Of a stretch of 64,000 nt of DNA, positions 32,677-52,322 are shown one piece after another (within the stretch, counting starts at the first letter, position 1; every line of letters begins with the position of its first letter). The DNA is from Escherichia phage vB_EcoM-Ro157lw. A program made the translations under genes and the position numbers. The stretch lies in the sequence record MH051335.1; one strand, 5' to 3'. The notes below the pieces were generated by a model, which worked only from the letters and a program-made list of their open reading frames with translations, was not told the origin of the DNA and made no database searches.

Positions 32677-32733
32677 GATGCACCAGATAAATAAAAGGCC
32701 GCCAATCGGCAGCCTTGTTGATTTGATTGTCGA

Positions 32734-33594: not shown

Positions 33595-33653
33595 TTGATG
33601 TTTTCCTATAGTATCAAGTTTCGTGGCAACCTGATTTCAAGATAAAGGTTAAA

Positions 33654-34471: not shown

Positions 34472-34545
34472 TTTGTATTCCTCTATTTCGTTTCGATGAA
34501 GTAATTATGACTCATCTTCCGTGACAAGTCAAATTATTTTTGATA

Positions 34546-36069: not shown

Positions 36070-36488
36070 GACAATTCCTCTAAATACTTGATGATGTGAT
36101 GGATGGACCCGCTCGCGGCGACCATATCCAAAATCTCACCCTTAGTATATTCTTTTAATCGCAATGAAGGGTGAACTAAATAATAAGCCTTTTCAGAATC
36201 TACCTTCAGCAGCACAAATGACGAGAACTTCCAATCATTCCAAGAAGTCAAAAAGCTTTGTTGGCCTTTCTCAAATGCACTTTTAAAAGGAAGAGTGGTG
36301 GCCCTTGCAGGCCACGATTCAAAAAACTTCATTTCAAGCCAAAAGCCGCGCCCTTTCCGGTTGGTGCCGATTACATCCGGCACACCATCACCCGTCATGG
36401 ATTCGATTCTTTGAAGCTTCAGTACTGATTCTGAATGCTTCTTCAAAGGAACGAAAATGTATTTTTGTTCACGGTTATTTGTTGCCAT
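36066..36488 (-). CDS. VRR-NUC domain nuclease (PD-(D/E)xK fold)
   Basis: GVPDVIG...GFWLEMK matches the D...E-x-K catalytic pattern; adjacent to SNF2 helicase. Confidence 0.55.
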   Translation of the reverse strand: MATNNREQKYIFVPLKKHSESVLKLQRIESMTGDGVPDVIGTNRKGRGFWLEMKFFESWPARATTLPFKSAFEKGQQSFLTSWNDWKFSSFVLLKVDSEKAYYLVHPSLRLKEYTKGEILDMVAASGSIHHIIKYLEELS

Positions 36489-37131: not shown

Positions 37132-37246
37132 CCTTTTGTTTTTGCGTTAAGGTTCCGGCTTCACGTGCTTCGATGTACTTCATCGCTTTCACCATTCCGT
37201 ACCCTTTAGCGTTCATGATGCCGCCAATTAGCTTTCCGTTAGCGAT
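36991..37246. repeat. perfect tandem duplication, unit 127 bp (two copies, 36991-37117 and 37118-37244, identity extends 2 nt further)
   Basis: seq[i] equals seq[i+127] across the whole span, read directly; lies inside the polymerase coding region. Confidence 0.9.
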
Positions 37247-39499: not shown

Positions 39500-40041
39500 T
39501 ATTTACTCCAGATGTCATATACGCCAATTTGTTGGCAGACTTTGTGCAGTAATATTACGTCGTCTAATGCACGGTGCTTCTGTTCATATTTTCCGAAATA
39601 TAATTCATACAGCTCTTGAAGCTTAACTCTTCGGCCAAAAATAGGCAAGGTTTGCTCGACTGTACAAATGTTTATTTCTGGAAAATTAACATCACCAAGT
39701 GTAAGACCTTCGCGCTGTAATGCATAATCAAGGATGTTCTTATCGAATGCATGGTTGTGCGCGATAGTGGCATCAGTCTTCTTGAAGATGTCTTTTAGTT
39801 GCGGAACGAAATGAATAAAGGGTGGATTGCACTCAAGGTCTTCATTGGTTAATCCGGTAATCTTTGTGATGATTTCTTCAATCACAATTTCAGGATTAAT
39901 TATGAACTCGAACGTTTCAAGAATCTCTTTGCCGTCCGTCAACAGGCCTGCAAATTCAATAGGGCGCGGCTGCATCCCAAGCGGTGCTTTCGGGTGCACG
40001 GTTAATCCGGTTGTTTCGAAGTCATAAGGGAGAAATAACAC
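39499..40041 (-). CDS. dnaQ: DnaQ-like 3'-5' proofreading exonuclease (DEDDh)
   Basis: Exo I DFETTGL, Exo II HNHAFD, Exo III HRALDD. Confidence 0.75.
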   Translation of the reverse strand: MLFLPYDFETTGLTVHPKAPLGMQPRPIEFAGLLTDGKEILETFEFIINPEIVIEEIITKITGLTNEDLECNPPFIHFVPQLKDIFKKTDATIAHNHAFDKNILDYALQREGLTLGDVNFPEINICTVEQTLPIFGRRVKLQELYELYFGKYEQKHRALDDVILLHKVCQQIGVYDIWSK

Positions 40042-40094
40042 ATTGGCCTCCTACAAAAGGCCGCCCATTAGGACGGCCACAGATTCAAGATTCG

Positions 40095-40646
40095 TTATGC
40101 AGTGTACGGAGTACCATCTTGATTCAACCGCACGATGAACTTAAGGTCGACGCCGATGATTTCACGCGTATCAAAGATCACATAGTTGTAACGACGCTGA
40201 CCAGCAATATTTGGGTTGGTGTGAGAGTCAGTTACAACTTCCTGCGCAACCTGAATGCCTTCTTCTTTAAAGAACTTGCGCCATTCAGCGAGTTCAGCGG
40301 CAGTCACGTGCATACCAAGATGGCTAACCTGATTGTCGTGTGCATCAATATATTCGATGTTTTCGTTAATCCAGTTGCGACCTTTCGTGTAGTCAAGAAT
40401 TTCAAGTTCAAGAGGCTTACCAGCGCCGCCATCGGTGCCGTTGCCAGCTTGATAGTTGAAGCGCAAGTCAGCTTCGTTGGTGCAATCGCCGCGCTGACCT
40501 TTAAAGTCATCAGCTTCAAATACGCGACCAGTAGCAACAACATGATCATGGAACCATTCTGTCAGGCCGATTTTAGCCAGAAAATCCTGTGCGCGCTGAG
40601 CATCTGGAATTGACAGGGCGATTTGTTCAATTTTAAAGTGTGGCAT
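40095..40646 (-). CDS. VOC-family (glyoxalase/bleomycin-resistance/dioxygenase fold) protein
   Basis: Two beta-alpha-beta modules with IEQIALSIPD and SHLGMHV metal-site-like patterns; motif-level only. Confidence 0.4.
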   Translation of the reverse strand: MPHFKIEQIALSIPDAQRAQDFLAKIGLTEWFHDHVVATGRVFEADDFKGQRGDCTNEADLRFNYQAGNGTDGGAGKPLELEILDYTKGRNWINENIEYIDAHDNQVSHLGMHVTAAELAEWRKFFKEEGIQVAQEVVTDSHTNPNIAGQRRYNYVIFDTREIIGVDLKFIVRLNQDGTPYTA

Positions 40647-40666
40647 TTTGTTTCCTTAATTAAATA

Positions 40667-40837
40667 TTATTGATTAATTACTGTGTTGCCTTCGATGGAA
40701 TAAGTCTCAATGGAACCGACGCGCTCGTGGTTAATCTTTGCGTTTTCGATTCTTATTACTTCAAATCCAACGCCTTCTTGATCAATCTTCACTTCTGCCA
40801 CGTCGCCAATCACTTCTACAACAACTTTGATAGTCAT
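40667..40837 (-). CDS. small hypothetical protein (56 aa)
   Basis: Translated by hand: MTIKVVVEVIGDVAEVKIDQEGVGFEVIRIENAKINHERVGSIETYSIEGNTVINQ; fills the gap between VOC and SDR genes. Confidence 0.3.
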   Translation of the reverse strand: MTIKVVVEVIGDVAEVKIDQEGVGFEVIRIENAKINHERVGSIETYSIEGNTVINQ

Positions 40838-40840
40838 GAT

Positions 40841-41524
40841 TTATTTCCCAAATGGAATATCAGTACCAGACATAAAGCGCCATGCGCCCGTAATTAAGAT
40901 ATGGCGAATGAAGTCAGCAATTACTTGCGGCTCAGTCTCCAATCCGTTCATCAATGCCTTTTTCTGGTATTCAGCGGCATACTCAGGAGTCCAGCCGCGA
41001 GTCGCGCAAACAGCATCTTCAATCTGTTTGGACATGCCAGTACCACGTAGCTTGTTAGGACTAATAGAGAATACCGTGATCCCGTATTTAGGCGTAAGCT
41101 CGTGAGCCATCTGCTTGCTAATCATAAGCGCAGCAGCCTTGGATGCATTATAACACAAGCTGGACGTCATAGGAATATGCGCAGCATTAGAAACGATATT
41201 GATCACAAAACCTTTGTTGTCGATAAGACTTTTCAGCGCGGCCTGAGTCGTGTTGACGAAAGAGAAGGCGTTGGTGTGCATAACGCGATTGAACTCTTCG
41301 TAGTTAACATCTTCGAACCAGTTGTTGGAGTTGACGCCAGCGCAGTTGATCAAGCCTTCTACGTCGTATTGAGAGAGAAGCTCTTTCATCTGTTTCGCGT
41401 TACGGATGTCATAGCCGTTCTCCAAATCAATACCGACAACTTCATGACCGTAAGCGCCAAGGGTGTCAAAAATGGATTTACCAAGACCGGAATTGCAGCC
41501 AGTTACAACAATTACTTTTTTCAT
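40841..41524 (-). CDS. short-chain dehydrogenase/reductase (SDR)
   Basis: Cofactor motif VTGCNSGLGK (TGxxxGxG) and catalytic YNASK (YxxxK). Confidence 0.7.
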   Translation of the reverse strand: MKKVIVVTGCNSGLGKSIFDTLGAYGHEVVGIDLENGYDIRNAKQMKELLSQYDVEGLINCAGVNSNNWFEDVNYEEFNRVMHTNAFSFVNTTQAALKSLIDNKGFVINIVSNAAHIPMTSSLCYNASKAAALMISKQMAHELTPKYGITVFSISPNKLRGTGMSKQIEDAVCATRGWTPEYAAEYQKKALMNGLETEPQVIADFIRHILITGAWRFMSGTDIPFGK

Positions 41525-41589
41525 TTATTTATCCTTTTTGGACTTCGTTTCGATGAGATAAATATAACTCATCGAAACGCACAAGTAAA

Positions 41590-42462
41590 CTATTTATTGA
41601 AATTAATATTATGGGTGTTAACAAGACGTTCACACATGGCGCTGTAAACACCATCATCGTGTATAGAGTCTTCGTGCTTCAGGCCGCTGATTGCGAAGCG
41701 TGTAAGCTTGACAATCTTAAGCTCGAACAGATGCCACATGTGGTAGTCTTCCGGCGTTTTCAACGTCACGCCATTAGGGAAAAGCACTTGCATAACCTGA
41801 CCTACCATCACAGCGTTATCGCCATAGACAGCGTTGCGCTCACGGAAGGTTGCTGCCATTGCATCAAGAATATCGGCGGCAGTTGCCGGAGATTGTTCAA
41901 CTTCCACAGCCTTAGTCTCTTCTTGCCCTGTTGCGCTTGGATCAATTGCTAATTGTTGCACCACTTCACCTGCCTTGCAAAGATTAAATGTAAAAGCGAT
42001 TTTATTTTGAGCAACGGAATTATAATACAATGCTTCATCTTGCATCCGCGCGAGTACGTCTTGTCGGTCGTCGAATACATTGATGATTCGATAATCGCCG
42101 TGCCGCAATGCGTGCGATAGCCATGCAGATTTCATAATAGTTGATGGACGTTTGTCGCCATAGTCTCTCATCTTGATTGTAAATTCATCAAAAGGAAAAA
42201 CATTATCCAGACGTTCAAAAGTCACTTGTCTGTATTTTTCTGGCCTTGCAGTCCAATATTCAACCGCCTCACCGCGAAGAGATGCCGACTCTACTGCTGA
42301 TGCAATGTGAGGATAGAACTGATCATAACCAATACCGCTGTGATAGTCATCATAGTCTGACGACGGACCTGCCACCTTTATGCGGTCTAAGCGCCAACGG
42401 TCATCAAACAGCGTTCCGTCAAGGTCGAATACATTTAAGATTTCGCTGTTTTTAATGCTCAT
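41590..42462 (-). CDS. HAD-family phosphatase domain fused to a C-terminal domain of unknown function
   Basis: Motif I FDLDGTL (DxDGT), later NVFDDRQD; C-terminal 140 aa alpha-helical with acidic patches. Confidence 0.5.
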   Translation of the reverse strand: MSIKNSEILNVFDLDGTLFDDRWRLDRIKVAGPSSDYDDYHSGIGYDQFYPHIASAVESASLRGEAVEYWTARPEKYRQVTFERLDNVFPFDEFTIKMRDYGDKRPSTIMKSAWLSHALRHGDYRIINVFDDRQDVLARMQDEALYYNSVAQNKIAFTFNLCKAGEVVQQLAIDPSATGQEETKAVEVEQSPATAADILDAMAATFRERNAVYGDNAVMVGQVMQVLFPNGVTLKTPEDYHMWHLFELKIVKLTRFAISGLKHEDSIHDDGVYSAMCERLVNTHNINFNK

Positions 42463-43289
42463 CCTTTTGATACTCCATCTTTAGCAACTGGATTGTTGGT
42501 GATTGGCATCGCACTCCAAAACTGGATGCGCAACTCTTCTTGCTGTGCCGTGGTATCCATCCAATCACGATACCAAGGGCAATGGGCTTTGCCATGACGA
42601 GGAAACGCGCATTTACCCATACCGATGCATTGCGGCTGTAATAATGGATTTGCCCACGGGTGCACCTTGAGGACTTCCGCAACCATTGCGCGGAATACTT
42701 CTTGATACTCGCCTTGAGTGCGCGTGCACAAGCGGTTTGACGCCATCTGCTGCAGCGTGCGCAAGTTGAACTTTGCCATGATATGCGTTTGCATATTAGA
42801 AGGCAACACGGCACGTGCATCTTGAATCTCTGCGCCAGCCGCGCGAAGCTCTTGATACAAAGCATCGATAGTCGCCATCGCATCATCCCACTTCTCTGCT
42901 AAGTATTGCTTTTGAAGTAAAGATTGGTGCTCTTCATCAGTCCCAAACGCTTCACATTGATCAATCAACTCTGGATTTTGGTGTGAGAATGCCTTCGGAC
43001 GAATCGCATCAAATGCAGACGACTCCTGAGCGCGGCTGGTACGTTCTTGATATGCGCCTGTGCGTGTGCGCACCATCTGATGGGTCATGTTCTTTGAAAC
43101 ATCGGTGATGTCAAAGATATAGTCCACAAAGTCAAAAGGCGACTTGATTGTATCAAGCATGTAGCGCCAGTGCTCTTGCTTCTCTGATTCCGTCATCTCA
43201 GAGACAGGCTTGCCAGTCATGCGCGTGTTCTTTGTTTCCAGCAAAAGGTCAAGTGCATCTTGGGTGTATCGAATTAATTTAACTTTCAT
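42459..43289 (-). CDS. thyX: flavin-dependent thymidylate synthase ThyX-like, with Cys-rich C-terminal extension
   Basis: RTRTGAYQERTSR aligns with ThyX motif RHRxxxYxQxSxR; VLPSNMQTH...PW matches the conserved ThyX C-terminal block; extra CIGMGKCAFPRHGKAHCPW tail. Confidence 0.65.
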   Translation of the reverse strand: MKVKLIRYTQDALDLLLETKNTRMTGKPVSEMTESEKQEHWRYMLDTIKSPFDFVDYIFDITDVSKNMTHQMVRTRTGAYQERTSRAQESSAFDAIRPKAFSHQNPELIDQCEAFGTDEEHQSLLQKQYLAEKWDDAMATIDALYQELRAAGAEIQDARAVLPSNMQTHIMAKFNLRTLQQMASNRLCTRTQGEYQEVFRAMVAEVLKVHPWANPLLQPQCIGMGKCAFPRHGKAHCPWYRDWMDTTAQQEELRIQFWSAMPITNNPVAKDGVSKG

Positions 43290-43302
43290 TTTAATTATCC
43301 TA

Positions 43303-43749
43303 TTAACGGTAGTTCACTAGTTGCTGATCACCAGAGAAGGTGCAATGATAAACAAATTGTGCATTATAAAGCAACTGAAAACTTTTCTTTGGTTCACTAT
43401 TAGCACTCATCGATGTGAATACTTCTGCACCGGAACGGTTTTCACCGATTAAGTTGACAAAGCCGCCAGTTGTGCGAGGTTGAACGAAAGTGAAACGTTG
43501 CATCCACGGAGTCCGGTTGACACCTTTTCCGGTGAATCCTTGAATCTGAATATTCAGACCTTCTTGCTCATTCACACCGATGTAAGTGGTAATCTTCGCA
43601 CCAGTCGTTGCTGCGGTCTTACCGTCCATCGCTTCGCAATCATAAACAGCGATTGAATCGGAAGTACGGATGGCAGCTTCAGTCGCTTCCATATACATGG
43701 TGCCGAGAATAGCAGTTGCGGCAAGCGCGATTCCAGTGATTCGTTTCAT
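43303..43749 (-). CDS. secreted protein (148 aa) with N-terminal signal peptide
   Basis: MKRITGIALAATAILGTMYMEATEA signal-like N-terminus. Confidence 0.45.
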   Translation of the reverse strand: MKRITGIALAATAILGTMYMEATEAAIRTSDSIAVYDCEAMDGKTAATTGAKITTYIGVNEQEGLNIQIQGFTGKGVNRTPWMQRFTFVQPRTTGGFVNLIGENRSGAEVFTSMSANSEPKKSFQLLYNAQFVYHCTFSGDQQLVNYR

Positions 43750-43814
43750 TTTCGTTTCCTCTATGAGTTCTGCTTCAATGATTAAAGTATACGCCCATTG
43801 AAGCAGAAAGCAAA

Positions 43815-44810
43815 TTATTTATTAGCAATATAAGCAAATTTTTGATAGTTATTTGCTTTGATGAGTTTTTCAACTTCAACAAGATCATGAGCGACGTCAT
43901 CAAGCAAAATGTTTCGCCAGGTAGCAAATCGACCGACACTAAACACGTTCAAATCCATAGTCAGCTGCAGGAGTAAGGCGTGTCGCAAGTCTTTCGGAAT
44001 GTCGACAATCTTTCCATATTTCTGGTCGACCTTTTCAACTTCTTCAAGAGCGATGTCACTCCATGAGAGGCCAAATGCCGTCAGCACCTCGTCGACTTCT
44101 GCGCGCAGCTTGATGTCACGGTAACGAGTGATGCCGCCAGCGGCTTCAACTGCAGCTTCACTTACGCTGACCAAAGGAATTGTTTCAATGATAAGCGTGT
44201 CACCAGTAATTGATGCGCGGTAAGTTCTGACGGAGTAGTCAGGGAAGTAAATTGTCTGATACAAATCACACTTACGTTTAATCTTAAAGCGGTAAACACG
44301 AATGTTTGCTTTATCAAATGAGAAATCAAGCTTTTGATCAATCCCAGCCAGCTTCATCATGACTGGCAGCGGCGACGTGTTGATGATTGGCGTCTCGCTA
44401 TAGCCGCAAAGAGTATCAACCGGAGTATTAAAGAATATGCGGTCACCCAGTTTGTCGACAAGCTGATCATAAAAGTCATCAGGCGCAATATAACGCGTTG
44501 CAGTCTTAAGATTCATGATTGAACGGCTGCCAAACTGATTGGTGACCTTCATGGAATACATATTGGCAAGGTTGATTGGGCAATGGTCGTGGTAGTAGTT
44601 GCCGCGAAAATACACAGCCTTGTCAACTGTCACTGCCTTAAAAGGGATTCCGGTAATACGGCTTACTTCTTCGCCACGGAAGCGTAGCAGCGCCTTGTGC
44701 TGTTGCGCTCGCTCCCCTGCTTCGTACACAACAGAGTTCGGGAAGTGACACGCTGTGATAAGTCCTGCCAATCCGCCGCCGATAATCATTACAGGTTGTT
44801 TCATGTTCAT
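43815..44810 (-). CDS. FAD/NAD(P)-binding Rossmann-fold oxidoreductase
   Basis: N-terminal dinucleotide-binding motif VMIIGGGLAGL; family not assignable by eye. Confidence 0.5.
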   Translation of the reverse strand: MNMKQPVMIIGGGLAGLITACHFPNSVVYEAGERAQQHKALLRFRGEEVSRITGIPFKAVTVDKAVYFRGNYYHDHCPINLANMYSMKVTNQFGSRSIMNLKTATRYIAPDDFYDQLVDKLGDRIFFNTPVDTLCGYSETPIINTSPLPVMMKLAGIDQKLDFSFDKANIRVYRFKIKRKCDLYQTIYFPDYSVRTYRASITGDTLIIETIPLVSVSEAAVEAAGGITRYRDIKLRAEVDEVLTAFGLSWSDIALEEVEKVDQKYGKIVDIPKDLRHALLLQLTMDLNVFSVGRFATWRNILLDDVAHDLVEVEKLIKANNYQKFAYIANK

Positions 44811-44942
44811 TTGTCCTTTGTGGGTGATATGAGAAGTATAATAGCTAAATTATTTTACAGCAACAAGTCATTTTATTTAGTACAGATGAAAAAAGACCCA
44901 CAACAAGTGTGGGTCAATTACCGCTGCATAACCGTCCTAAGG

Positions 44943-45782
44943 TTATTCCGCTTGATCACCGTCTTCGGCATCTTCGTTGGATTCAACATCGACAAACTCG
45001 ATGTGGCCCATCTCTTCCAGCTTGCTCAGGTAGGAGCGAACGGAAGCGCCAAACAGTTGATCTTTAACTTTTTCGCCCAGCTCATCGATAGACTGCGCCA
45101 CGCCAACTTCGCCTTCTTTGATCGCCGCCAGAACGCGTCCACGGGTGGAATGCTCTTGCGGCTGGCTCAGGCCATTGCCAGTGTAGATGAAGTGGGTTGC
45201 TTTTGCGCGACGCTGACCGTTTGCCTTTTTAGCAGCCTTACGTTCTGCGATGGCTTTGCGACGTTCTTCAGCTTCTTTCTTACGCTGTTCTTTCTGCTTT
45301 TCTGCAGCTTCTTTAGCCGCAATCTTAGCAGCTTCACGCTCTGCCTTGCGTTTCGCTTTAGCTTCTTCTTTGGCCTTCTCTTTTTCGGCCTTCGCTGCAG
45401 CACGGGCTTGATCACGCTCTGCTTTCTTAGCAGCAGCTTGTTCAGCTTTCAGGCGCTTGGCTTCTTCTTTGGCCTTTGCCTTTTCGATTTCTTTTGCTGC
45501 TTTAGCGGCTTCACGCTCTGCTTTCTTAGCAGCTGCTTTTTCTGCACGCTCTTTGGCTTTCTTCGCTGCTTCTTCAGCACGTTTCTGTGCTTTCTCATCA
45601 GCGGCCTGCTTGCGTTTCAGTGCAGCTTCTTCACGCTTGGCTTGTTTTTCCTGCTCACGCTTCTGGCGTTTTTCTTCGGCTTCTTTCTTTTTAGCCAGGC
45701 GTTTTTCTTCAGCCACGCGACGACGTTCTGCTGCAGCTGCTTGTTTTTCTTCTTTAGATAATACTTTGATTGCTTCGGCCAT
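44943..45782 (-). CDS. Lys/Ala/Glu-rich low-complexity protein with small globular C-terminal domain
   Basis: About 200 residues of KxAExxAK-type repeats, then about 80 non-repetitive C-terminal residues. Confidence 0.5.
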   Translation of the reverse strand: MAEAIKVLSKEEKQAAAAERRRVAEEKRLAKKKEAEEKRQKREQEKQAKREEAALKRKQAADEKAQKRAEEAAKKAKERAEKAAAKKAEREAAKAAKEIEKAKAKEEAKRLKAEQAAAKKAERDQARAAAKAEKEKAKEEAKAKRKAEREAAKIAAKEAAEKQKEQRKKEAEERRKAIAERKAAKKANGQRRAKATHFIYTGNGLSQPQEHSTRGRVLAAIKEGEVGVAQSIDELGEKVKDQLFGASVRSYLSKLEEMGHIEFVDVESNEDAEDGDQAE

Positions 45783-45941
45783 ATTCACAGTCCTTAAATA
45801 AATTAGTTTATTTTATATTCCCCGTTTGGGATAACTTAATTATGCCTTCAGTCGCCGCCAGTAGCAACTAAAAACTCTGGCGGCAATGCCACTTTAATTA
45901 AACTGATTTTCAGTTTTATTTTTCGTAAATTTACGTCAACA

Positions 45942-47126
45942 TTAACGCGCTTTCAAATCACGGTACACAGTCAGATTCTTCTTAGCGCGGGTAATAGCTG
46001 TATACATCATCTTGGCATACGGAACGCCGCGCAAGATTTCTTCCAGCACGCACACATTGTCCCACTCGCTGCCTTGAGATTTGTGCACCGTTATGACATA
46101 GCCATAGTCCATTCCTCCAACAGCGCGTTGGGCCTCTTTGCGCACTTCCTGATCAGTAGAGAAGGAAAGAGGATTTATCTTAACCTTTATATCTTTGCCA
46201 TCGGTAAGCGAGCGCAAATTTACATACATTATTTCATTGGACTCATCTTCATCCCTTTCAAAGTCCGGTACTGGCTCATAACTAATAACAATCCCTTGCT
46301 CGCCATTACAGAATCCTGGACCGTGTTGGTTGAATGTACAAATAACTTTCTCGCCGATTCCTGGCATTGGCGTTATACGTCCGCTCACTTGTCGCAATAA
46401 TGAATTCCATTTATCTTTAGTGCTATTATATGAGCAAATAATTTGATCATCTTCGCCCATGAATTTCTTCAGTGCGGTAACGCGCGGCGATTCAGCCAAC
46501 ACCTTTACGTCATCGTATTCACGCGGAGGAAGTCGGTTGCCCTGTCGCACGAAGAAGGAAGCGCGGATTATGTTGGACTCTTTTCCCTGCCGCATGATTT
46601 CGGTTAACAGTACGTCAACGGCATCTTCAGTAAAGTAGGCGGCGGCTTTTACCGGAGGGACTTGCCCAATGTCGCCTAATGCCAGCACAGGGATGCGGTG
46701 ATCAAGAAGGCGCTCTGTGTCCCACTCGCCAACCATTGAAGCTTCATCAAGGACTACAAGATGCGGCTTTTCGTCCAGCTTTGACTTTCTCGAAAATATT
46801 GGCTCATTGTCGTCATTTACGCCGCGAACGTTATAGATGAACTGGTGAAGGGTCTTCGCGCCACGACACCCTTTCTGCTTCAATCGGCTGGCGGCCTTTC
46901 CGGTCGGCGCAATATAAATGGCACCGTACTCACCGACACAACGGCGCACAATCTCACGCGCAATAGAGGTTTTACCTGTTCCTGCATAGCCAGCGATGAA
47001 AAACACGCGCTTCGTCGTTTTACCGTCCTGCAATCGCTTGTACCATGCAACGGCCTTTTCGATGGCATCAATCTGTTGCGCGTTAAACTGAATCGCTGGC
47101 TCATTATTAAATTCTGGAATGTTCAT
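45942..47126 (-). CDS. SF1 DNA helicase (Dda/RecD-like)
   Basis: Walker A AGYAGTGKT, Walker B VLDEASM, VITVHKSQGSEWDNV and YTAITRAK motifs. Confidence 0.75.
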   Translation of the reverse strand: MNIPEFNNEPAIQFNAQQIDAIEKAVAWYKRLQDGKTTKRVFFIAGYAGTGKTSIAREIVRRCVGEYGAIYIAPTGKAASRLKQKGCRGAKTLHQFIYNVRGVNDDNEPIFSRKSKLDEKPHLVVLDEASMVGEWDTERLLDHRIPVLALGDIGQVPPVKAAAYFTEDAVDVLLTEIMRQGKESNIIRASFFVRQGNRLPPREYDDVKVLAESPRVTALKKFMGEDDQIICSYNSTKDKWNSLLRQVSGRITPMPGIGEKVICTFNQHGPGFCNGEQGIVISYEPVPDFERDEDESNEIMYVNLRSLTDGKDIKVKINPLSFSTDQEVRKEAQRAVGGMDYGYVITVHKSQGSEWDNVCVLEEILRGVPYAKMMYTAITRAKKNLTVYRDLKAR

Positions 47127-47452
47127 TATAACTCCACTACGCTTTCAAGGTCCAGATATACTGGAATAAAATGGCAATCTTCTTTTCGTTCAAACATCTC
47201 ACCGTCAACGTGACTGAAGAAAACAGTCGTGTTTGGTATCTTCCACCCTTGCTCGTCTCGCACCAGGTACGCCATGGATTCAACAGGGATGTAAAGCGAT
47301 ACCGGATTTGCGGCAAAGATGAATTTGATTCTGTCTGGTTGACCCAGGAATCGCATAATTGTAAGACTTGAATTCAGTCTTGTATTAAGGAAGGACTCAA
47401 CGATGCCGACGTGTGTTGCACGTTCGCGTTGCTTCGTATCTTTTTCGTTCAT
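47126..47452 (-). CDS. hypothetical protein (108 aa)
   Basis: First gene of the minus-strand operon; promoter region upstream. Confidence 0.4.
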   Translation of the reverse strand: MNEKDTKQRERATHVGIVESFLNTRLNSSLTIMRFLGQPDRIKFIFAANPVSLYIPVESMAYLVRDEQGWKIPNTTVFFSHVDGEMFERKEDCHFIPVYLDLESVVEL

Positions 47453-47555
47453 TTCAGGCGACCTTTGTTAGTGCGGAAATATTTTTTGATAGTATAATTG
47501 CAGATATAGTATAAAGCAAAGTAAATCGAAATTGTGAACTAAATGGTAAATATTG

Positions 47556-47583
47556 TTGACTTTGCATCACTCAATATTATACT
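47556..47583 (+). promoter_or_regulatory. sigma70-like promoter (TTGACT-16 nt-TATACT) for the plus-strand early operon
   Basis: Near-consensus hexamers read directly; RBS GGAAAGAAAG then ATG 47613. Confidence 0.45.
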
Positions 47584-47612
47584 GCAGGTATTGATCACCG
47601 AAGGAAAGAAAG

Positions 47613-48695
47613 ATGGCTAGTTTAAGAGAAGAAGCAAAAATAATCGAAGAGTTTTTGACGGAACTCCAAAGAGGCATTCCAGAAGATGAACGCGTCATGA
47701 CCGTGTTTGCGCCTGAAGCAACGGTGCAGACCGACGAGCGCGGCAAAAAGATTAACAGCAGCTTCTGGCCTAAGCCTTGGAAGCTTGGCAAGCCGCTGAT
47801 GCAACATCAGAACGGTTACGCCTGCATAAGTTCAATGCGTAAGTCTCCCAACCCAAAGACAGGCGAGATGCGATACTGGCGCACGGAATCGGCTTTCGGT
47901 CATGGCATGGCGATGATGGTCGACGACATCGGACACGGTAAAGGGTCAAAGGGCGATTTAGATTTGGAGTTCTTTTTCGAGCGCCTAAAACCAACCGTCA
48001 TCGTCGAGACTTCGCCGAACAACCATCAGCTGTGGTACTTCTTTAAAGAACCGATTGACCATCTTATTCAGTTCAAAGCATTCCTTGGGTCTTTCGTAAA
48101 CATGGTACTCAAGAAGGGCGGCGACAACACGATTAAAGACGTGACGCGCGTGGGCCGTGTTCCTGGGTGCATCAACAACAAGCGTGTGACTCACGACGGC
48201 CCCTATAAATATGTCGATGAGAACGGCGACCCGTTCCGCTGCCGACTTGTCCATGCAGACTATTCCTTGCGCTACACAATCGAAGAGATTTGCCAAGCCT
48301 TCGGTTTCCACGTCGTTATGCCGCAAAAGCGTGAAATTCAAATCGACGTTGACGAATACAAATATGACGCTGTTTGGTATAAGATAGCCCAGCAAATCCT
48401 TGCGCGCAATAAGATGGGCGAAGGGTCAGATGGCGATGTGGTTGAAAACATGTCAGGTAAATGTCGCATCATCTGTCCTTGGGGTGAAGAGCACACCAAC
48501 GGCGACCCATACGGCGCTTATTTTCGCGGCCCAATCCCTGGCGCTGAACATGAATTCGTTTTCGGTTGCGCTCACGACTGTCACCGGAAAGGGGAAGGCA
48601 AGAAAGGATGGACCGCTTTTGTTGAAGCAGTAGTCATGCCTTATATTGAGAATCAACTTGATATGATAAATCGTCGCGCAGGTGGCATAAAATAG
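47613..48695 (+). CDS. putative primase-polymerase (AEP-like) with C-terminal Cys/His zinc-binding cluster
   Basis: Acidic MMVDDIGHG segment, C-terminal CRIICPWGEEH...FGCAHDCH cluster, paired downstream with VirE/D5-like NTPase. Confidence 0.45.
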   Translation: MASLREEAKIIEEFLTELQRGIPEDERVMTVFAPEATVQTDERGKKINSSFWPKPWKLGKPLMQHQNGYACISSMRKSPNPKTGEMRYWRTESAFGHGMAMMVDDIGHGKGSKGDLDLEFFFERLKPTVIVETSPNNHQLWYFFKEPIDHLIQFKAFLGSFVNMVLKKGGDNTIKDVTRVGRVPGCINNKRVTHDGPYKYVDENGDPFRCRLVHADYSLRYTIEEICQAFGFHVVMPQKREIQIDVDEYKYDAVWYKIAQQILARNKMGEGSDGDVVENMSGKCRIICPWGEEHTNGDPYGAYFRGPIPGAEHEFVFGCAHDCHRKGEGKKGWTAFVEAVVMPYIENQLDMINRRAGGIK

Positions 48696-48753
48696 TTTGC
48701 TTTTATTTTTCTAGCAACTATAATCATTTTATGAACTGAAGCAGAGGTTATTT

Positions 48754-48900
48754 ATGCAAAGCGAAGAATTGAACATCGAGCTTGAAGGTCTGTTAAATTC
48801 GTTAGAACCTAAGCACGTAGAGCTTCCCACCCTTGAAGGTGTCATGGCTCACCACCAATCGGCTGCGGCCAAACAATACTCTGAATTTGTTAAGGAATAA
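48754..48900 (+). CDS. small hypothetical protein (48 aa)
   Basis: ATG with RBS GAGGT; below ORF-track cutoff. Confidence 0.3.
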   Translation: MQSEELNIELEGLLNSLEPKHVELPTLEGVMAHHQSAAAKQYSEFVKE

Positions 48901-48902
48901 AA

Positions 48903-49193
48903 ATGAACGAACCAAAAATGATGACCACTGAAGAAGCGCAAAAACTTCGCGTGGAGAACGAGCTGAAGCTTGTCAATGAAATTCTTCCTCTGTTTAAAGG
49001 CTATGCGGTTGAAGAAGTTGTTGGCGCAATCCTTAATGTTTCGACTCACGTGGCGATGAATCTGAATGCAGAGCGTTTCAATACTTTGCTGACGATTAAC
49101 AACTTCACTGTCAGTGCAACGTTTACCGTTGAGCCAGTGAATTTTGAAGAAGCTGCAGCCGCGATTCAACAACGGCGAGATCAAGAGGTGTAG
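48903..49193 (+). CDS. hypothetical protein (96 aa)
   Basis: ORF in early operon. Confidence 0.4.
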   Translation: MNEPKMMTTEEAQKLRVENELKLVNEILPLFKGYAVEEVVGAILNVSTHVAMNLNAERFNTLLTINNFTVSATFTVEPVNFEEAAAAIQQRRDQEV

Positions 49194-49194
49194 C

Positions 49195-49458
49195 ATGGGT
49201 GCTTTCCGCAACGAGTTTGTTTGGAACGTCACAAGCAGTCTTTCGACTTGTCCTAACTGTGCAAGCGATGTGATCAAGGTGCGGCAGCATCGCAATGCAG
49301 AGGAAGGTGCCTGGGAGGACGGCGACCTTGTAGAGTGCCAGTGTTGCTCTCACGAAGGCGTGGTGGAGCTTTACGCCGGAGAAGGTTGTCCACCAGCAGA
49401 ACGTACAGCACGCGTTGAATGGGATGCGACAGACTCCATCGGTGATCCTCAACAGTAA
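49195..49458 (+). CDS. small zinc-ribbon-like protein (two CxxC pairs)
   Basis: CPNC ... CQCC spacing; RBS AAGAGGTG. Confidence 0.4.
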   Translation: MGAFRNEFVWNVTSSLSTCPNCASDVIKVRQHRNAEEGAWEDGDLVECQCCSHEGVVELYAGEGCPPAERTARVEWDATDSIGDPQQ

Positions 49459-49470
49459 ATTTAGGTATAG

Positions 49471-49581
49471 ATGCATATGAAAGCCGTAAAGAAATACACA
49501 TTAATCATTTCCCTTGTTATCATCCTGGGGCTATTATATGTATTGGATATGGCATATTATTTGGCAGGGGTGAGTAAATGA
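49471..49581 (+). CDS. small hydrophobic peptide (36 aa)
   Basis: Single hydrophobic helix LIISLVIILGLLYVL; overlaps next start (ATGA). Confidence 0.25.
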   Translation: MHMKAVKKYTLIISLVIILGLLYVLDMAYYLAGVSK

Positions 49582-49868
49582 ATATTGTAATTCTTTATGG
49601 TGAGAATATCAGCGATGACGACATCGAAGTTGCCGTTGATGTTTACGGTATCGATGAGGTGAAACGTGTTGAAGAAATTAATGGCTCAAATCTTAATGAG
49701 ATTGCCAAAGAAGCTGGTTGCCCTTCGGAAGAGATTCTGGTGGTTACTAACGATGACCTGTCTTCTATGGATTGTTTGCGCCGCATCTTCACCGATTGCC
49801 AATACCTTCATTCTGTTCAGTCAGTAAACAAATTGAGAAAGGCATACGCTGACCAATTTCCTTGCTGA
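49578..49868 (+). CDS. hypothetical acidic protein (96 aa)
   Basis: ORF in early operon. Confidence 0.4.
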   Translation: MNIVILYGENISDDDIEVAVDVYGIDEVKRVEEINGSNLNEIAKEAGCPSEEILVVTNDDLSSMDCLRRIFTDCQYLHSVQSVNKLRKAYADQFPC

Positions 49869-49919
49869 TAGTTCACCAGTTATATTGCTTTAAACTGAGT
49901 TTTACTATATTAATATACA

Positions 49920-49944
49920 ACGCCAGATTTCTGGCGTTTATTTA
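49920..49944 (+). terminator. intrinsic terminator (ACGCCAG-ATTT-CTGGCGT then TTTATTT)
   Basis: 7-bp stem, 4-nt loop and U-tract read directly. Confidence 0.5.
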
Positions 49945-50004
49945 CCGCACCCTGAAAGGATATATCCATGCAACAATATAACAAAGCCGTATCAGGAGGA
50001 TTAA

Positions 50005-51675
50005 ATGTCAATTGAACATGACAATCTTCCAGAGGATACAGGTGATGAATTTGGTGCAATCTTTGACGAAATTCAAGACGCTGGTGTTTCAGAAGAGATG
50101 CAAGCGGCAGAGCAGCAAGGCACCAGAGCTAAAATCAGCCTCCAGCATAAGGCTGTTGAGAAAGATGCAGAGCGCATGGAGTGCTACGGTGAAGAAGACT
50201 TGGTTGAAAGAGCACGTTTGCTCGCCTCACTTCAGGTAATCAAGTTCCCTCACTACAAACCGACGAAAGATGATTTTGTTCTTCAGGCGGACCGGACGAG
50301 TGACATGAACCGTTATGCGGTTTTCGACGCGTTGTTTGATAAGGGAAGCGGCATTGTCCCATTCCCTCACAAAGATACTTTTCGTGGACGCTTAGTCGAC
50401 CATCGCGGCGAAACATTCACCGACCGGACGTTGGAAGTCACAGAGATAGTTGCCGCTGTAGACGCAGCAGGTCTGTCCAACCCAAACTCACGTCAGGTCG
50501 CTCAATCCTATAAGGAATGGGCTATGCGTTATCAGCGCGACGACCTGATGGACTTCTTCTACAAGAAGCTGCCTGAATGGGACGGTACTGCGCGCATTGA
50601 AAAATACCTTATCGAGCTATTCCGACCGTTCGATACAGAGTTAAACCGACAAATCGGTGTGTATTTTTGGCTATCGCTCTATAACCGCCTGACCAATCCT
50701 GGCTGTCAAGCGCCAATCTCCATTGCGCTCATCGGCGGCCAGAACGCAGGGAAGAGTTATTTTAGTAAGCTGCTTTGCGAAGCTATTATGAACGACCGCC
50801 ACGCAACACCGATTCCGTTGAACTTGGCCGCGCAGAACTTCAACCCGTTCTTGCGAGCTATTACGGGTCGCTCAATTATCGCGAACGTTGGTGAGATGAC
50901 AGGCTTTAAAAAGGCCGACATCGAAAACATGAAAGCATTCCTGACTAAGACGGAAGATGACCTGGACTTCAAATTTGAAGATACGCAGGTTAAACCACGC
51001 CAGTGGATTGCTATCATGGACGGCAACGAATACGCAGGCATGCAGCGTGACGATACGGGCAACCGTCGTGTGTATCCTATCTTTGTTGGCCAACTCGCCG
51101 ACAAGGACGGGCAACCGAACTGGTCGAAAGACTTCCAAGCTGACCTTTCCACTTTGAAAGAAGACGTTTGGCAACTGATGGCTGAGTGTGCTGCGTGGAT
51201 GGAGAAGCACGGCGAAGCAGGTTACAACGCGTTTGTCGGTGAAACATCTCGCATGCTTACTGAGTTCAGCAAGAACGAAATGGAACGCGCTCGCGGCGTT
51301 ATCCGTGATGAGATGGTCGACAACGACCTTGTTGAAGTCGTCATCACCGCGCCTTATGACCGACATCACAGCGGACGCTGGCACATCACCAGTGGTGCAA
51401 TCGCTATGGGATTCAGAGCTAAGTGCGGCAAGTCGCCTTTCTCACGTACCCTTGCGCCGCACATGTCGAAGCTTGGATTTGAGCCTGCAACCTATCGCAA
51501 CCAGCGTGGCTACTTTACGCCGCTGATTAAGAATGAAGCAGGGGAATACATTTCTGACTTGATGACTATCTTAGCGTATCTTATCCGCGACGAGTCTGAC
51601 CCTGAAGATATTGAATTCTTGAAGAAGGTTATTGAACGCAAACGTTCTTTAGGAAGAGATAAGGATGAATTCTGA
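50005..51675 (+). CDS. VirE/D5-like P-loop NTPase (primase-associated helicase)
   Basis: Walker A LIGGQNAGKS; 556 aa; shortly downstream of the primase-polymerase candidate. Confidence 0.6.
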   Translation: MSIEHDNLPEDTGDEFGAIFDEIQDAGVSEEMQAAEQQGTRAKISLQHKAVEKDAERMECYGEEDLVERARLLASLQVIKFPHYKPTKDDFVLQADRTSDMNRYAVFDALFDKGSGIVPFPHKDTFRGRLVDHRGETFTDRTLEVTEIVAAVDAAGLSNPNSRQVAQSYKEWAMRYQRDDLMDFFYKKLPEWDGTARIEKYLIELFRPFDTELNRQIGVYFWLSLYNRLTNPGCQAPISIALIGGQNAGKSYFSKLLCEAIMNDRHATPIPLNLAAQNFNPFLRAITGRSIIANVGEMTGFKKADIENMKAFLTKTEDDLDFKFEDTQVKPRQWIAIMDGNEYAGMQRDDTGNRRVYPIFVGQLADKDGQPNWSKDFQADLSTLKEDVWQLMAECAAWMEKHGEAGYNAFVGETSRMLTEFSKNEMERARGVIRDEMVDNDLVEVVITAPYDRHHSGRWHITSGAIAMGFRAKCGKSPFSRTLAPHMSKLGFEPATYRNQRGYFTPLIKNEAGEYISDLMTILAYLIRDESDPEDIEFLKKVIERKRSLGRDKDEF

Positions 51676-52322
51676 TGAATAAAGCAATCAACATCGCTAA
51701 ATTCTTTCAACATCTTGGTGAACTGAACAAAGAGAGTGACGTTCACGGAGAAGAAATGAACCGGATGATTTCAACCGTGTTGCGTGGTTTTGGTTACGAT
51801 AAGGACTCCATCAACTGTAAGCGCACGAAGCTTGTCGATGAGACATACCTTTACTATGTTGAATTGCGCGTAGGCAAAGATTTGATGATCATCGACCCAA
51901 AACTGGAAGGGGCGCACTGCTTTGGTGCTCACCCTCGTGCGAGTGAATTCAAGGGTCGCGGTCGCAACCGACTCCAGAAGCTTGATGATGCAGGCGACCT
52001 GAACATCTCGATGTTCCTCAAAGAGTTCCTTGCTCTGCCGAAGGTTGCATCTTCAACGGGCCGTGATGACCTGTGCAAGATTGGATTCAGAACTAAAGAT
52101 TTGCGCAATGCGCTACGCAAGAAGGGATTTGTGCCTTCTTATGATAACGTCGCCGCGCTGATGGCTTCCATGGAGGAAGCTGAAGCAATGGACAAGGTGC
52201 GCGGCTATTTCCTGAATACAGGCTACACAATGTATGAGTGGCACACCAAAGGATTGACGGTCGCCGACTTCATCTATTCATTAGAGCAGAAGTATGTACG
52301 CAATATGCAGGCCACAGGATAA
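51675..52322 (+). CDS. hypothetical protein (215 aa)
   Basis: ORF with overlapping start. Confidence 0.45.
   Translation: MNKAINIAKFFQHLGELNKESDVHGEEMNRMISTVLRGFGYDKDSINCKRTKLVDETYLYYVELRVGKDLMIIDPKLEGAHCFGAHPRASEFKGRGRNRLQKLDDAGDLNISMFLKEFLALPKVASSTGRDDLCKIGFRTKDLRNALRKKGFVPSYDNVAALMASMEEAEAMDKVRGYFLNTGYTMYEWHTKGLTVADFIYSLEQKYVRNMQATG

What the first reader, a model, noticed from the sequence alone, without database searches (positions are those of the whole stretch)
44943..45782. Lys/Ala/Glu-rich repeat protein with a globular C-terminal domain
About 200 residues of near-periodic KxAExxAK repeats, encoded by a visibly repetitive DNA tract, precede an 80-residue non-repetitive C-terminus. 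Such highly charged helical repeats occur in histone-H1-like and TolA-like proteins and in some internal virion proteins. The location in the replication module suggests a DNA-coating or nucleoid-remodelling role.
Basis: partly seen in the sequence, partly recalled or inferred. Interest (0 to 1): 0.5.

Follow-up and report, generated by a model that had tools for sequence, protein, structure and literature searches.

The report
Charge-striped rod protein with winged-helix head
A conserved, probably very highly expressed phage protein of unknown function is predicted to be one 26-nm alpha-helix with an unbroken stripe of positive charge, joined to a small winged-helix (DNA-binding-type) domain and an acidic tail; it is mislabelled "TolA" in databases and most likely binds nucleic acid.

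Summary
The ORF is real: minus strand, 44943..45782, 279 aa, in a Wifcevirus (E. coli myophage) genome. All 28 database relatives carry it as exactly 840 nt, so there is no repeat-number variation and no assembly artefact. Published mass spectrometry found the orthologue in CsCl-purified virions.

The "KxAExxAK repeat" description is imprecise. That motif occurs once and the DNA tandem repeats are weak. The true periodicity is a signed-charge period of 3.67 residues (11/3, z about 17), in phase over about 16 turns of the 11-residue repeat. It places a K/R(+Ala) stripe along one face of a single predicted helix (residues 10-186).

The same signal appears in 25 of 29 family members whose helices cannot be aligned. 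E. coli TolA lacks it.

The C-terminus folds as a winged helix with invariant basic residues, followed by an acidic tail. The gene has its own promoter-like site and a strong terminator. It has the highest optimal-codon fraction of 50 window ORFs and dN/dS 0.028 (helix 0.008).

TolA membership is rejected. Histone H1 is only an analogy. My best reading (about 0.4) is an abundant nucleic-acid-binding architectural protein that is partly carried in virions. Function is untested.

The parts
45839..45867 (-). sigma-70-like promoter candidate (TTGCTA, 17-nt spacer, CATAAT) about 55 nt upstream of the ATG. An 8-bp perfect stem (GCCGCCAG/CTGGCGGC, 45883..45854) overlaps its -35 element.
   Evidence: Consensus scan (9 of 12 matches; 2 sites found against 1.3 expected, so weak on its own); sequence read.
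45791..45795 (-). Ribosome-binding site AAGGA, 8 nt before the ATG at 45782.
   Evidence: The Mansfield record annotates an RBS at the equivalent place.
44943..45782 (-). Coding sequence of 279 aa plus stop (31.1 kDa, pI 9.6). Member of PHROG 4765 (unknown function).
   Evidence: It is 840 nt and ungapped in 28 Wifcevirus records. dN/dS is 0.028. Orthologue peptides were seen by MS.
45225..45755 (-). Residues 10-186: one continuous predicted alpha-helix (about 26 nm). It has an 11/3 charge periodicity and a K/R(+Ala) stripe on hendecad positions 10, 3, 7 and 0. Acidic residues flank the stripe.
   Evidence: AF2 pLDDT 79-97. Fourier z = 18 at 98 degrees. Phase stays within 282-323 degrees over the whole length, and the stripe holds 43 K/R and 2 acidic residues out of 65. 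dN/dS is 0.008.
45358..45545 (.). The only detectable internal DNA duplication: 45358..45446 against 45457..45545, offset 99 nt (three hendecads), 77% identity.
   Evidence: TRF also reports a 33-bp (one hendecad) x1.9 array at 45532..45595.
44991..45224 (-). Residues 187-264: conserved basic arm (GxRRxKATH) followed by a winged-helix domain with topology beta-alpha-beta-alpha-alpha-beta. Invariant or near-invariant residues are R191, R192, T196, Q209, S212, R214, G227, R249, K254 and L255.
44946..44990 (-). Residues 265-279: disordered acidic tail (DVESNEDAEDGDQAE, net -7). An acidic tail is present in almost all homologues (net -2 to -16).
   Evidence: pLDDT below 50. Charges. The intact C-terminal peptide was seen by MS with 162 PSMs. 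dN/dS is 0.33.
44885..44915 (-). Intrinsic terminator (GACCCACAC-TTGTT-GTGGGTC followed by TTTTTT), 28 nt after the stop codon.
   Evidence: A terminator is annotated at the same place in Mansfield, WFH, LBL3, phiKTN6, XcP1 and MTx.

Best explanation
The gene encodes a probably abundant nucleic-acid-binding architectural protein of the PB1-like myophage group (Wifcevirus, Pbunavirus and relatives).

Shown. (1) The protein is predicted as a single helix of about 26 nm, then a winged-helix domain, then an acidic disordered tail. (2) The helix carries a phase-coherent 11/3 charge pattern that puts an almost acid-free K/R stripe along one face. (3) That pattern, not the sequence, is what the family conserves. 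(4) The gene is under purifying selection as strong as that on the helicase and primase. (5) It has the codon usage of the most highly expressed genes in the window. (6) The orthologue is present in CsCl-purified virion preparations.

Inferred. The winged-helix head and its RRxK arm anchor the protein on DNA through the invariant basic residues (R191, R192, R214, R249, K254). The basic stripe of the rod then lies against phosphate backbones: along one duplex, bridging neighbouring duplexes, or along single-stranded nucleic acid. The opposite acidic/Ala face and the acidic tail would limit aggregation, allow side-by-side electrostatic pairing, or recruit partners. Because the protein is abundant and DNA-bound late in infection, part of it is packaged with the genome, or co-purifies with it.

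For: Conserved basic residues sit on the arm, at the start of helix 1 and on helix 3 of a domain whose net charge is about 0.

Stripe: z = 18 at 98 degrees. The stripe positions hold 43 K/R and 2 acidic residues out of 65, and Arg is tightly focused there (resultant 0.67).

Family-wide: the peak lies at 97-99 degrees in 25 of 29 members, z 6-23. The basic sector holds 0-10% acidic residues in most members.

Constraint: dN/dS is 0.008 for the helix and 0.028 overall. For comparison, the helicase gives 0.026 and the primase 0.014. No length variation in 28 genomes.

Expression: the gene has its own promoter-like site and a strong, conserved terminator. Fop is 0.75, the highest of 50 ORFs, and all 25 Arg codons are CGT or CGC.

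MS: 422 PSMs, area 3.1e9, rank 5 of 33 by score, above portal, major capsid and sheath proteins.

Context: a replication/nucleotide-metabolism arm with no recognisable SSB or histone-like gene. The gene sits next to a Dda-like helicase in seven genera.
Against: No DNA-binding assay exists. Winged-helix domains can also bind proteins or RNA; RPA32C, Scc1 and the MetAP2/Ebp1 insert are among the hits.

The helix is half acidic, and most homologues are near-neutral or net negative overall, which is not what a simple DNA-coating polycation looks like.

The virion MS preparation also contained abundant glyoxalase-like and other non-structural proteins. The Pbunavirus SCUT-S1 virion proteome did not list the homologue. 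The E217 paper built 19 gene products de novo, and neither that paper nor the Pa193 paper mentions this protein in the text I searched; their gene-product tables were not seen.

Fop is partly inflated by the K/E/A/R-dominated composition. The promoter call is only a 9/12 consensus match.
Confidence: 0.4

Rival explanations
1. A non-virion replication or recombination accessory factor that works with the neighbouring Dda-like helicase. It would act as an adaptor or loader: the winged helix binds DNA or a partner, and the acidic tail recruits the helicase or polymerase in the way the tails of T4 gp32, T7 gp2.5 or SSB do. Its presence in virion preparations would then be carry-over of an abundant late-infection protein.
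For: The gene lies immediately downstream of the Dda-like helicase in Wifcevirus, Pbunavirus, Carpasinavirus, Myosmarvirus, Burkholderia WTB, Pantoea PA1 and Vibrio JSF39. The acidic C-terminal tail is conserved. No SSB is recognisable in the arm. Other non-structural proteins are abundant in the same MS sample. The homologue is absent from the SCUT-S1 virion MS.
Against: The gene has its own promoter-like site and terminator and is not obviously co-transcribed with the helicase. Fop is 0.75 against 0.48 for the helicase, which suggests stoichiometric rather than catalytic amounts. The helicase itself is only a trace in the same MS run (5 PSMs against 422). The synteny may simply reflect the collinearity of this phage group. 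A divergent member (P0008) has no helicase neighbour.
Confidence: 0.25
2. A true internal or ejected virion protein whose main job is not DNA coating. Examples would be a rod-like strut or spacer inside the capsid, or a protein injected with the DNA to protect the genome ends or counter host defences.
For: High MS rank in CsCl-purified particles of vB_Eco4M-7 and detection in ECML-117. Not mentioned in the text I searched of the E217 and Pa193 cryo-EM papers, as expected for an asymmetric internal component. Length is strictly constant within the genus. Wifcevirus phages show considerable resistance to restriction.
Against: The gene lies in the replication arm, on the opposite strand from and far away from the morphogenesis genes. 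It is not listed in the Pbunavirus SCUT-S1 proteome. The "structural protein" labels in Pbunavirus records trace back to a similarity-based note in LBL3, "putative cell wall associated hydrolase". Helix length varies between genera, about 85-190 residues, which argues against a ruler. Restriction resistance could equally come from the neighbouring nucleotide-modification genes.
Confidence: 0.15
3. A protein-binding or RNA-binding hub. In this reading the winged helix recognises a host or phage protein, or RNA, and the rod acts as a passive spacer or as an electrostatic self-assembly module. The function would be host take-over or regulation rather than DNA architecture.
For: Several of the best fold hits are protein- or RNA-binding winged helices: RPA32C, Scc1, ScpB, the MetAP2/Ebp1/Arx1 insert and the McbB peptide-recognition element. 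The basic and acidic faces are about 176 degrees apart, which could zip helices side by side. Distant relatives replace the rod with an unrelated N-terminal domain, PHROG 4730.
Against: Five invariant basic residues cluster on the canonical DNA-contacting elements of the fold. High abundance is not typical of regulators.
Confidence: 0.12
4. A TolA homologue: an envelope-spanning rod of the Tol-Pal type, as several GenBank records annotate it.
For: K/A/E-rich helical composition. "TolA protein" labels appear in the FEC19, ECML-117, vB_Eco4M-7, Epa21 and BcepF1 records.
Against: BLASTP against E. coli TolA gives E = 0.22. TolA matches PF06519 at 2e-38, while the phage protein matches no Pfam or NCBIfam family. 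There is no hydrophobic segment; the highest Kyte-Doolittle 19-mer average is 0.61. TolA domain II has no 98-degree charge signal (z = -0.1).
Confidence: 0.01

Closest known systems
Linker histone H1/H5 (winged-helix globular domain plus charged low-complexity tail)
   Same: Both combine a small winged-helix globule with a long charged low-complexity arm. Both are abundant, and a stoichiometric DNA-architectural role is plausible here.
   Different: No sequence or profile match was found. Linker-histone domains are only marginal fold hits (Foldseek E = 2.3 and 8.5). The arm here is N-terminal, is predicted as one folded helix, and contains 21% acidic residues arranged in stripes. It is not a disordered K/A/P polycation. 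Many homologues are net negative.
E. coli TolA domain II (the current database label)
   Same: K/A/E-rich composition and a long alpha-helical rod followed by a small C-terminal globule.
   Different: The phage protein has no membrane anchor, no TolA C-terminal domain and no significant similarity to TolA. TolA's charge period is 7.2 residues, not 3.67. The gene sits in a cytoplasmic replication-module context.
Abundant phage-encoded histone-like proteins (phi29 p6, SPO1 TF1; from my own knowledge)
   Same: Small, very abundant DNA-binding proteins encoded among early or replication genes, acting stoichiometrically on the phage genome.
   Different: The folds are unrelated: p6 has its own fold and TF1 is HU-like. 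Neither has a long rod. DNA binding is experimentally established for those proteins and not for this one.
11-residue (11/3) repeat helices: right-handed hendecad coiled coils, group-3 LEA proteins, apolipoprotein/alpha-synuclein 11-mers (from my own knowledge)
   Same: The same 3.67-residue periodicity, which gives a nearly straight stripe along the helix.
   Different: In those proteins the stripe is hydrophobic (a core or a lipid-binding face). Here it is K/R(+Ala) with only about 5% I/L/V/M. There is no 11-mer sequence consensus, and the window protein has no LEA match in Pfam.
Single alpha-helix (ER/K) domains such as those of myosin X or caldesmon (from my own knowledge)
   Same: A very long, highly charged helix predicted to stand alone, with few hydrophobic residues.
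   Different: ER/K helices spread opposite charges around the helix, with i to i+4 ion pairs and an approximately 8-residue block period. Here like charges are segregated onto faces and Ala is 30%.
[not shown]
   Same: A winged-helix DNA-binding head attached to an extended helix.
   Different: In those proteins the helix is short (30-50 residues), C-terminal and forms a hydrophobic dimer interface. Here it is 177 residues long, N-terminal and charge-striped.

Membership tests
TolA (Tol-Pal system) | N-terminal transmembrane anchor | tested here: not met
   The highest Kyte-Doolittle 19-residue average is 0.61, and it lies inside the winged helix. The N-terminus is MAEAIKVLSKEEK.
TolA (Tol-Pal system) | TolA C-terminal domain (Pfam PF06519) | tested here: not met
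   E. coli TolA matches PF06519 at 2e-38. The phage protein matches no Pfam family at E <= 0.1 and no TolA model in NCBIfam.
TolA (Tol-Pal system) | Detectable sequence similarity to TolA | tested here: not met
   BLASTP with composition adjustment: best E = 0.22, 18.9 bits.
Linker histone H1/H5 | Linker_histone globular-domain profile match | tested here: not met
   No Pfam hit for the window protein or for seven family members. Foldseek hits to H1 globular domains have E = 2.3 and 8.5.
Linker histone H1/H5 | Disordered, strongly polycationic K/A/P-rich tail | tested here: not met
   The arm is predicted as one helix with pLDDT 79-97. It contains 40 acidic residues in 177. In homologues its net charge is only 0 to +15.
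Winged-helix (wHTH) fold superfamily | Helix1-strand-helix2-helix3-strand topology with a beta wing | tested here: met
   [not shown]
Winged-helix (wHTH) fold superfamily | Nucleic-acid binding through helix 3 and the wing | not testable with these tools
   The only support is indirect: invariant R249 and K254 on helix 3, R214 at the start of helix 1, and R191/R192 in the arm.
Hendecad (11/3) coiled coil | 3.67-residue periodicity | tested here: met
   Peak at 98 degrees with z = 18. There is no signal at 103 degrees, the heptad angle.
Hendecad (11/3) coiled coil | Hydrophobic core at positions a/d/e/h | tested here: not met
   The periodic stripe is K/R plus Ala. I/L/V/M make up 7 of 177 residues.
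Single alpha-helix (ER/K) domain | Opposite charges interleaved around the helix (i to i+4 pairs), with no charged face | tested here: not met
   Charges are segregated: the K/R mean angle is 306 degrees and the E/D mean angle is 130 degrees. Like charges recur at lags 7, 11 and 18. Some K-to-E i+4 pairs exist (z = 3.1).
PHROG 4765 (phage protein family, unknown function) | Profile match over the whole protein | tested here: met
   E = 6.6e-84 over residues 1-279. Distant relatives match through the C-terminal domain only.
Virion (structural or internal) proteins of PB1-like phages | Reproducible presence in purified particles | tested here: inconclusive
   Literature only. Strong in vB_Eco4M-7 and weak in ECML-117. 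Not listed for SCUT-S1. The Pa193 supplement was not available. Contaminating enzymes were present in the positive sample.

The most novel reading that the evidence does not exclude
The protein is the structural unit of a phage "chromatin". Many copies would coat the phage genome, with the winged-helix head anchoring each copy. The 26-nm basic-striped rods would lie along or between duplexes and zip to each other through their opposite acidic faces. The coat would travel inside the capsid, enter the cell with the DNA and shield it from host nucleases and defence systems. The phage's own SNF2-type translocase (34546..36069) would strip or slide the coat for replication and transcription; a 2025 paper likens the Pbunavirus homologue of that translocase to the Ino80/CHD1L remodelers. 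The conserved 11/3 charge-striped helix would then be a previously undescribed nucleic-acid-binding or self-assembly module.
Probability: 0.1. Interest if true: 0.85.

Novelty: new variant of a known kind. Interest (0 to 1): 0.5.

Why it matters
The family is restricted: 45 cluster representatives among 1.84 billion proteins. Yet the domain was found in 356 phage records, 293 of them Pseudomonas phages, most of those inspected being Pbunavirus, a group among those most used in Pseudomonas phage therapy. It is also in the fast-replicating Wifcevirus phages. It is uncharacterised and is currently mislabelled as "TolA" or "structural protein".

It appears to be one of the most highly expressed proteins of these phages and is as constrained as their replication enzymes.

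What evolution conserves in the rod is not sequence but a physical pattern: a straight, acid-free basic stripe about 26 nm long. That is an unusual design and a directly testable one. If the stripe binds nucleic acid, it would add a new type of architectural DNA-binding module. It might also help to explain genome protection, packaging or the very rapid replication reported for these phages.

Tried and rejected
1. Tandem DNA repeats. TRF and self-BLAST find only weak, degenerate duplications. Rejected as the defining feature.

2. The KxAExxAK motif occurs once.

3. Assembly artefact or repeat-number polymorphism. Rejected: 28 of 28 genomes carry exactly 840 nt in one ungapped piece.

4. TolA homology. 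Rejected.

5. Pfam, NCBIfam and PDB sequence searches on the protein, on the domain and on a seven-member alignment gave nothing significant.

6. The word-indexed protein search returned only fragments, apparently because full-length low-complexity proteins are poorly indexed. The exhaustive HMMER search was needed.

7. Foldseek against PDB gave no hit below E = 0.3. BFVD returned only family members. The afdb50 library was unavailable.

8. Tracing the "structural protein" label in Pbunavirus. It goes back to a similarity-based note in LBL3. I did not trace it to any proteomics. Ceyssens 2009 is not held, and the Pa193 and FoX6 supplements are not held.

9. Heptad coiled coil. There is no 103-degree signal, and no heptad register is enriched in hydrophobic residues.

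10. The plus-strand antisense ORF 44697..45761. It is a codon-composition artefact: F/L/S/C/A-rich, with an extra stop in Mansfield.

11. The 14-1 transcriptome paper gave no gene-specific information in its main text.
Full report
WHERE WE ARE. The window is a Wifcevirus genome (E. coli/Shigella myophage of about 68 kb). A 3.2-kb stretch around the finding matches 28 phage records at 94-98% identity. The finding is an ORF on the minus strand, 44943..45782, with an ATG at 45782 and an AAGGA ribosome-binding site 8 nt upstream. It lies in the leftward replication/nucleotide-metabolism arm. Its upstream neighbour is a Dda-like SF1B helicase (45942..47126). Its downstream neighbour is a protein that the Mansfield record calls UDP-galactopyranose-mutase-like (43815..44810).

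CHECK OF THE OBSERVATION. The composition claim holds. Residues 1-195 are 92% K/R/A/E/Q with net charge +29, and residues 196-279 are ordinary sequence with net charge -11.

The repeat claim holds only loosely:
- The motif K.AE..AK occurs once.
- TRF finds only a 15-bp x2 array and a 33-bp x1.9 array.
- Self-BLAST finds a single 92-bp pair, offset by 99 nt, at 77% identity.

The artefact worry is settled. In all 28 relatives the ORF is exactly 840 nt and aligns as one ungapped piece at 94.3-99.6% identity. There is therefore neither repeat-number variation nor a collapsed assembly.

Expression is settled by published proteomics (see below). The longer plus-strand ORF 44697..45761 is a by-product of GCN/AAR/GAR codons read backwards.

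THE REAL PERIODICITY. A Fourier analysis of the signed charge along residues 10-186 shows a sharp peak at 98 degrees per residue. That is a period of 3.67 residues, or 11/3. The z-score is 18 against 500 composition-preserving shuffles, and none of the shuffles reaches the observed maximum.

Folding the sequence in rows of 11 shows about 16 hendecads in an unbroken register, with the phase staying within 282-323 degrees throughout. Hendecad positions 10, 3, 7 and 0 together hold 43 K/R, 18 Ala and only 2 acidic residues out of 65. Arg is focused at the stripe centre (resultant 0.67). Acidic residues sit on the flanks and on the far side, with the E/D mean angle 176 degrees away from the K/R mean angle.

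The few DNA duplications have units of 33 and 99 nt, that is one and three hendecads. The rod therefore seems to have grown in register.

STRUCTURE. AlphaFold2 on the C-terminal 94 residues with 8 homologues gives mean pLDDT 80.5, about 90 in the core. The topology is beta-alpha-beta-alpha-alpha-beta. The full-length model with a 26-sequence alignment has mean pLDDT 86 and shows three parts:
- one continuous helix, residues 10-186 (177 residues x 1.5 A, about 26 nm);
- a short linker and a globular domain, residues 197-264;
- a disordered tail, residues 265-279.

The invariant or near-invariant residues across the family are R191, R192, T196, Q209, S212, R214, G227, R249, K254 and L255. Five of these are basic. 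They lie on the N-terminal arm, at the start of helix 1 and on helix 3, the usual recognition helix. The domain as a whole has a net charge of about zero.

THE FAMILY. tblastn with the C-terminal domain finds 356 phage records. They include Pbunavirus (PB1, 14-1, LBL3, F8, phiKTN6, E79 and others), Serratia MTx, Pantoea PA1/Kyle, Burkholderia WTB, Xanthomonas XcP1 and Vibrio JSF39. The BFVD fold search adds Burkholderia BcepF1.

An exhaustive HMMER search of 1.84 billion cluster representatives finds only 45, so this is a small, phage-restricted family. It corresponds to PHROG 4765, of unknown function.

The core members share one architecture: a K/A/E/R-rich N-terminal region, the motif GxRRP(K/R)ATH, the winged helix and an acidic tail. 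Some homologues have His-rich N-termini. More distant members replace the rod with an unrelated N-terminal domain, PHROG 4730.

The rods cannot be aligned between genera and differ in length (about 85-190 residues). Even so, 25 of 29 members peak at 97-99 degrees with z 6-23. The basic sector is almost free of acidic residues in most of them. What is conserved is the charge pattern, not the sequence.

The rod is a polyampholyte. Its net charge is 0 to +15 in homologues and +26 in the window protein, the highest. Tails carry -2 to -16, so many homologues are net negative overall.

SELECTION AND EXPRESSION. Among seven Wifcevirus orthologues, dN/dS is 0.008 for the rod (382 synonymous against 12 non-synonymous pairwise differences). 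It is 0.049 for the winged helix, 0.33 for the tail and 0.028 overall. In the window-versus-Mansfield comparison the gene scores 0.021. The helicase scores 0.026 and the primase 0.014 in the same comparison. This low-complexity tract is therefore under very strong purifying selection.

A sigma-70-like site lies at 45867..45839. It is a weak call, with 9 of 12 consensus matches. A strong intrinsic terminator lies at 44915..44895. A terminator is annotated at the same position in six other phages.

The fraction of E. coli-optimal codons is 0.75, the highest of 50 window ORFs. The major capsid protein scores 0.71 and the helicase 0.48. All 25 Arg codons are CGT or CGC. The K/E/A/R-dominated composition inflates this measure somewhat.

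PROTEOMICS FROM THE LITERATURE. Necel et al. 2020 (PMC7048862) analysed CsCl-purified vB_Eco4M-7 and ECML-117.
- The orthologue vB_Eco4M-7_83 ("TolA protein") scored 1197.6 with 7 peptides, 422 PSMs and area 3.1e9. It ranked fifth of 33 proteins, ahead of portal (559 PSMs), major capsid (333) and sheath (358).
- Almost all peptides come from the winged helix and tail, including the intact C-terminal peptide (162 PSMs). This is expected, because trypsin shreds the rod.
- In ECML-117 it was detected weakly: 2 peptides, score 3.2.

There are three caveats:
- The same sample contained abundant glyoxalase-like protein (207 PSMs) and two unknowns from the replication arm. These, like the target, have high codon adaptation.
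- A Pbunavirus virion proteome (SCUT-S1) did not list the homologue, although it did list trace helicases.
- The E217 paper built 19 gene products de novo. Neither that paper nor the Pa193 paper mentions this protein in the text I searched, and their gene-product tables were not seen.

The "structural protein" labels in Pbunavirus records go back to an LBL3 note, "putative cell wall associated hydrolase", which is based on similarity. The protein is therefore certainly made and probably abundant. Specific packaging is likely but unproven.

WHAT IT IS NOT. It is not TolA:
- BLASTP gives E = 0.22.
- There is no PF06519 match, whereas E. coli TolA matches at 2e-38.
- There is no hydrophobic anchor.
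- TolA domain II has a 7.2-residue charge period and z = -0.1 at 98 degrees.

It is not a linker histone in the family sense. There is no profile match and only marginal fold hits. The arm is a folded polyampholyte helix rather than a disordered polycation. It is not a canonical coiled coil (no hydrophobic core). It is not an ER/K single alpha-helix either, because its charges are segregated onto faces rather than interleaved.

MOST LIKELY MECHANISM. Shown: the architecture, the stripe and its conservation, the constraint, the expression signals and the presence in virion preparations.

Inferred: the winged-helix head with its RRxK arm binds nucleic acid. The rod presents a straight, acid-free basic stripe about 26 nm long, roughly the length of 77 bp of B-DNA. 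It would lie against phosphate backbones along one duplex, across neighbouring duplexes, or along single strands. The acidic/Ala face and the acidic tail would prevent non-specific aggregation, allow side-by-side electrostatic pairing, or recruit partners. Being abundant and DNA-bound, the protein ends up in or with the packaged genome. I put this at about 0.4.

The main rival (0.25) is a non-virion accessory factor of the Dda-like helicase or replisome. The supports are the conserved adjacency in seven genera, the SSB-like acidic tail, and the absence of a recognisable SSB in the arm. A dedicated internal or ejected virion protein (0.15) and a protein- or RNA-binding hub (0.12) remain open.

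NOVELTY AND INTEREST. I found nothing about this protein in the papers I searched, and the most detailed Pbunavirus gene-by-gene discussion skips it. That same paper notes that the phage's SNF2-type "helicase" resembles the Ino80/CHD1L chromatin remodelers. This makes a phage chromatin-like system an attractive speculation, but nothing more (probability about 0.1).

I classify the finding as a new variant of a known kind: a winged-helix protein, probably architectural and nucleic-acid-binding, with an unusual, conserved charge-striped hendecad rod. Interest is 0.5. The design is striking and easy to test, and it occurs in therapeutically used phages, but its function is still inferred.

Noticed in passing
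window 34546..36069 (-): SNF2/HepA-type "DNA helicase" (PHROG 62). A 2025 paper on the Pbunavirus Banzai says the predicted structure of its homologue resembles the eukaryotic chromatin remodelers Ino80 and CHD1L rather than unwinding helicases.
   Followed up: partly
window 40095..44810 (-) and 31568..32161 (-): A cluster of nucleotide-metabolism-like genes: glyoxalase-like, FabG-like SDR, HAD/PNK-like phosphatase, ThyX, a UDP-galactopyranose-mutase-like flavoprotein, and a MazG pyrophosphatase further on. It could be a DNA base-modification pathway. BASEL reports considerable restriction resistance for Wifcevirus.
   Followed up: no
window 32734..33594 (-), 33654..34211 (-), 40095..40646 (-): Three proteins from the replication arm (two of unknown function and the glyoxalase-like one) are also abundant in the CsCl-purified virion MS of vB_Eco4M-7. 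Two of them have among the highest optimal-codon fractions in the window (0.72 and 0.66). The third scores 0.52.
   Followed up: partly
window 43303..43749 (-): A 148-aa ORF with a signal-peptide-like N-terminus (MKRITGIALAATAILGTMYMEATEAA) in the middle of the replication arm. It has no Pfam, PHROG or NCBIfam match.
   Followed up: no
window 36475..39499 (-): The Pol III alpha-like polymerase appears as two overlapping ORFs (37112..39499, 795 aa, and 36475..37131, 218 aa). Both match the same PHROG 405 profile end to end, so this may be a frameshift, a split gene or a sequencing error.
   Followed up: no
window 45854..45883 (-): A perfect 8-bp stem (GCCGCCAG ... CTGGCGGC) with a 15-nt loop that contains the -35 hexamer of the promoter-like site upstream of the gene. 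It could be a helicase terminator remnant or a regulatory element.
   Followed up: no
homologues WTB (L007 3395..4276), P0010, P0013, P0015, P0020, P0026: A subset of family members (the Burkholderia type and metagenomic ones) begin with a His-rich stretch such as MSHSHHDHHHEH or MSHGHHNHG. The Wifcevirus protein lacks it. It may be a metal-binding or anchoring tip of the rod.
   Followed up: no
P0034, P0036, P0038-P0044, P0046 (metagenomic): Distant relatives keep the winged-helix domain but replace the charged rod with a conserved N-terminal domain of about 60 aa (…ETYNALTGKSIKKFE.RAIAERRV…, PHROG 4730, unknown function) and a linker.
   Followed up: partly
window 44697..45761 (+): A 354-aa antisense ORF, longer than the real gene, made of F/L/S/C/A codons. 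It is a trap for gene callers in this kind of low-complexity tract.
   Followed up: yes
window 29876..52322: No recognisable single-strand DNA-binding protein was found among the replication-arm ORFs scanned against PHROGs.
   Followed up: partly
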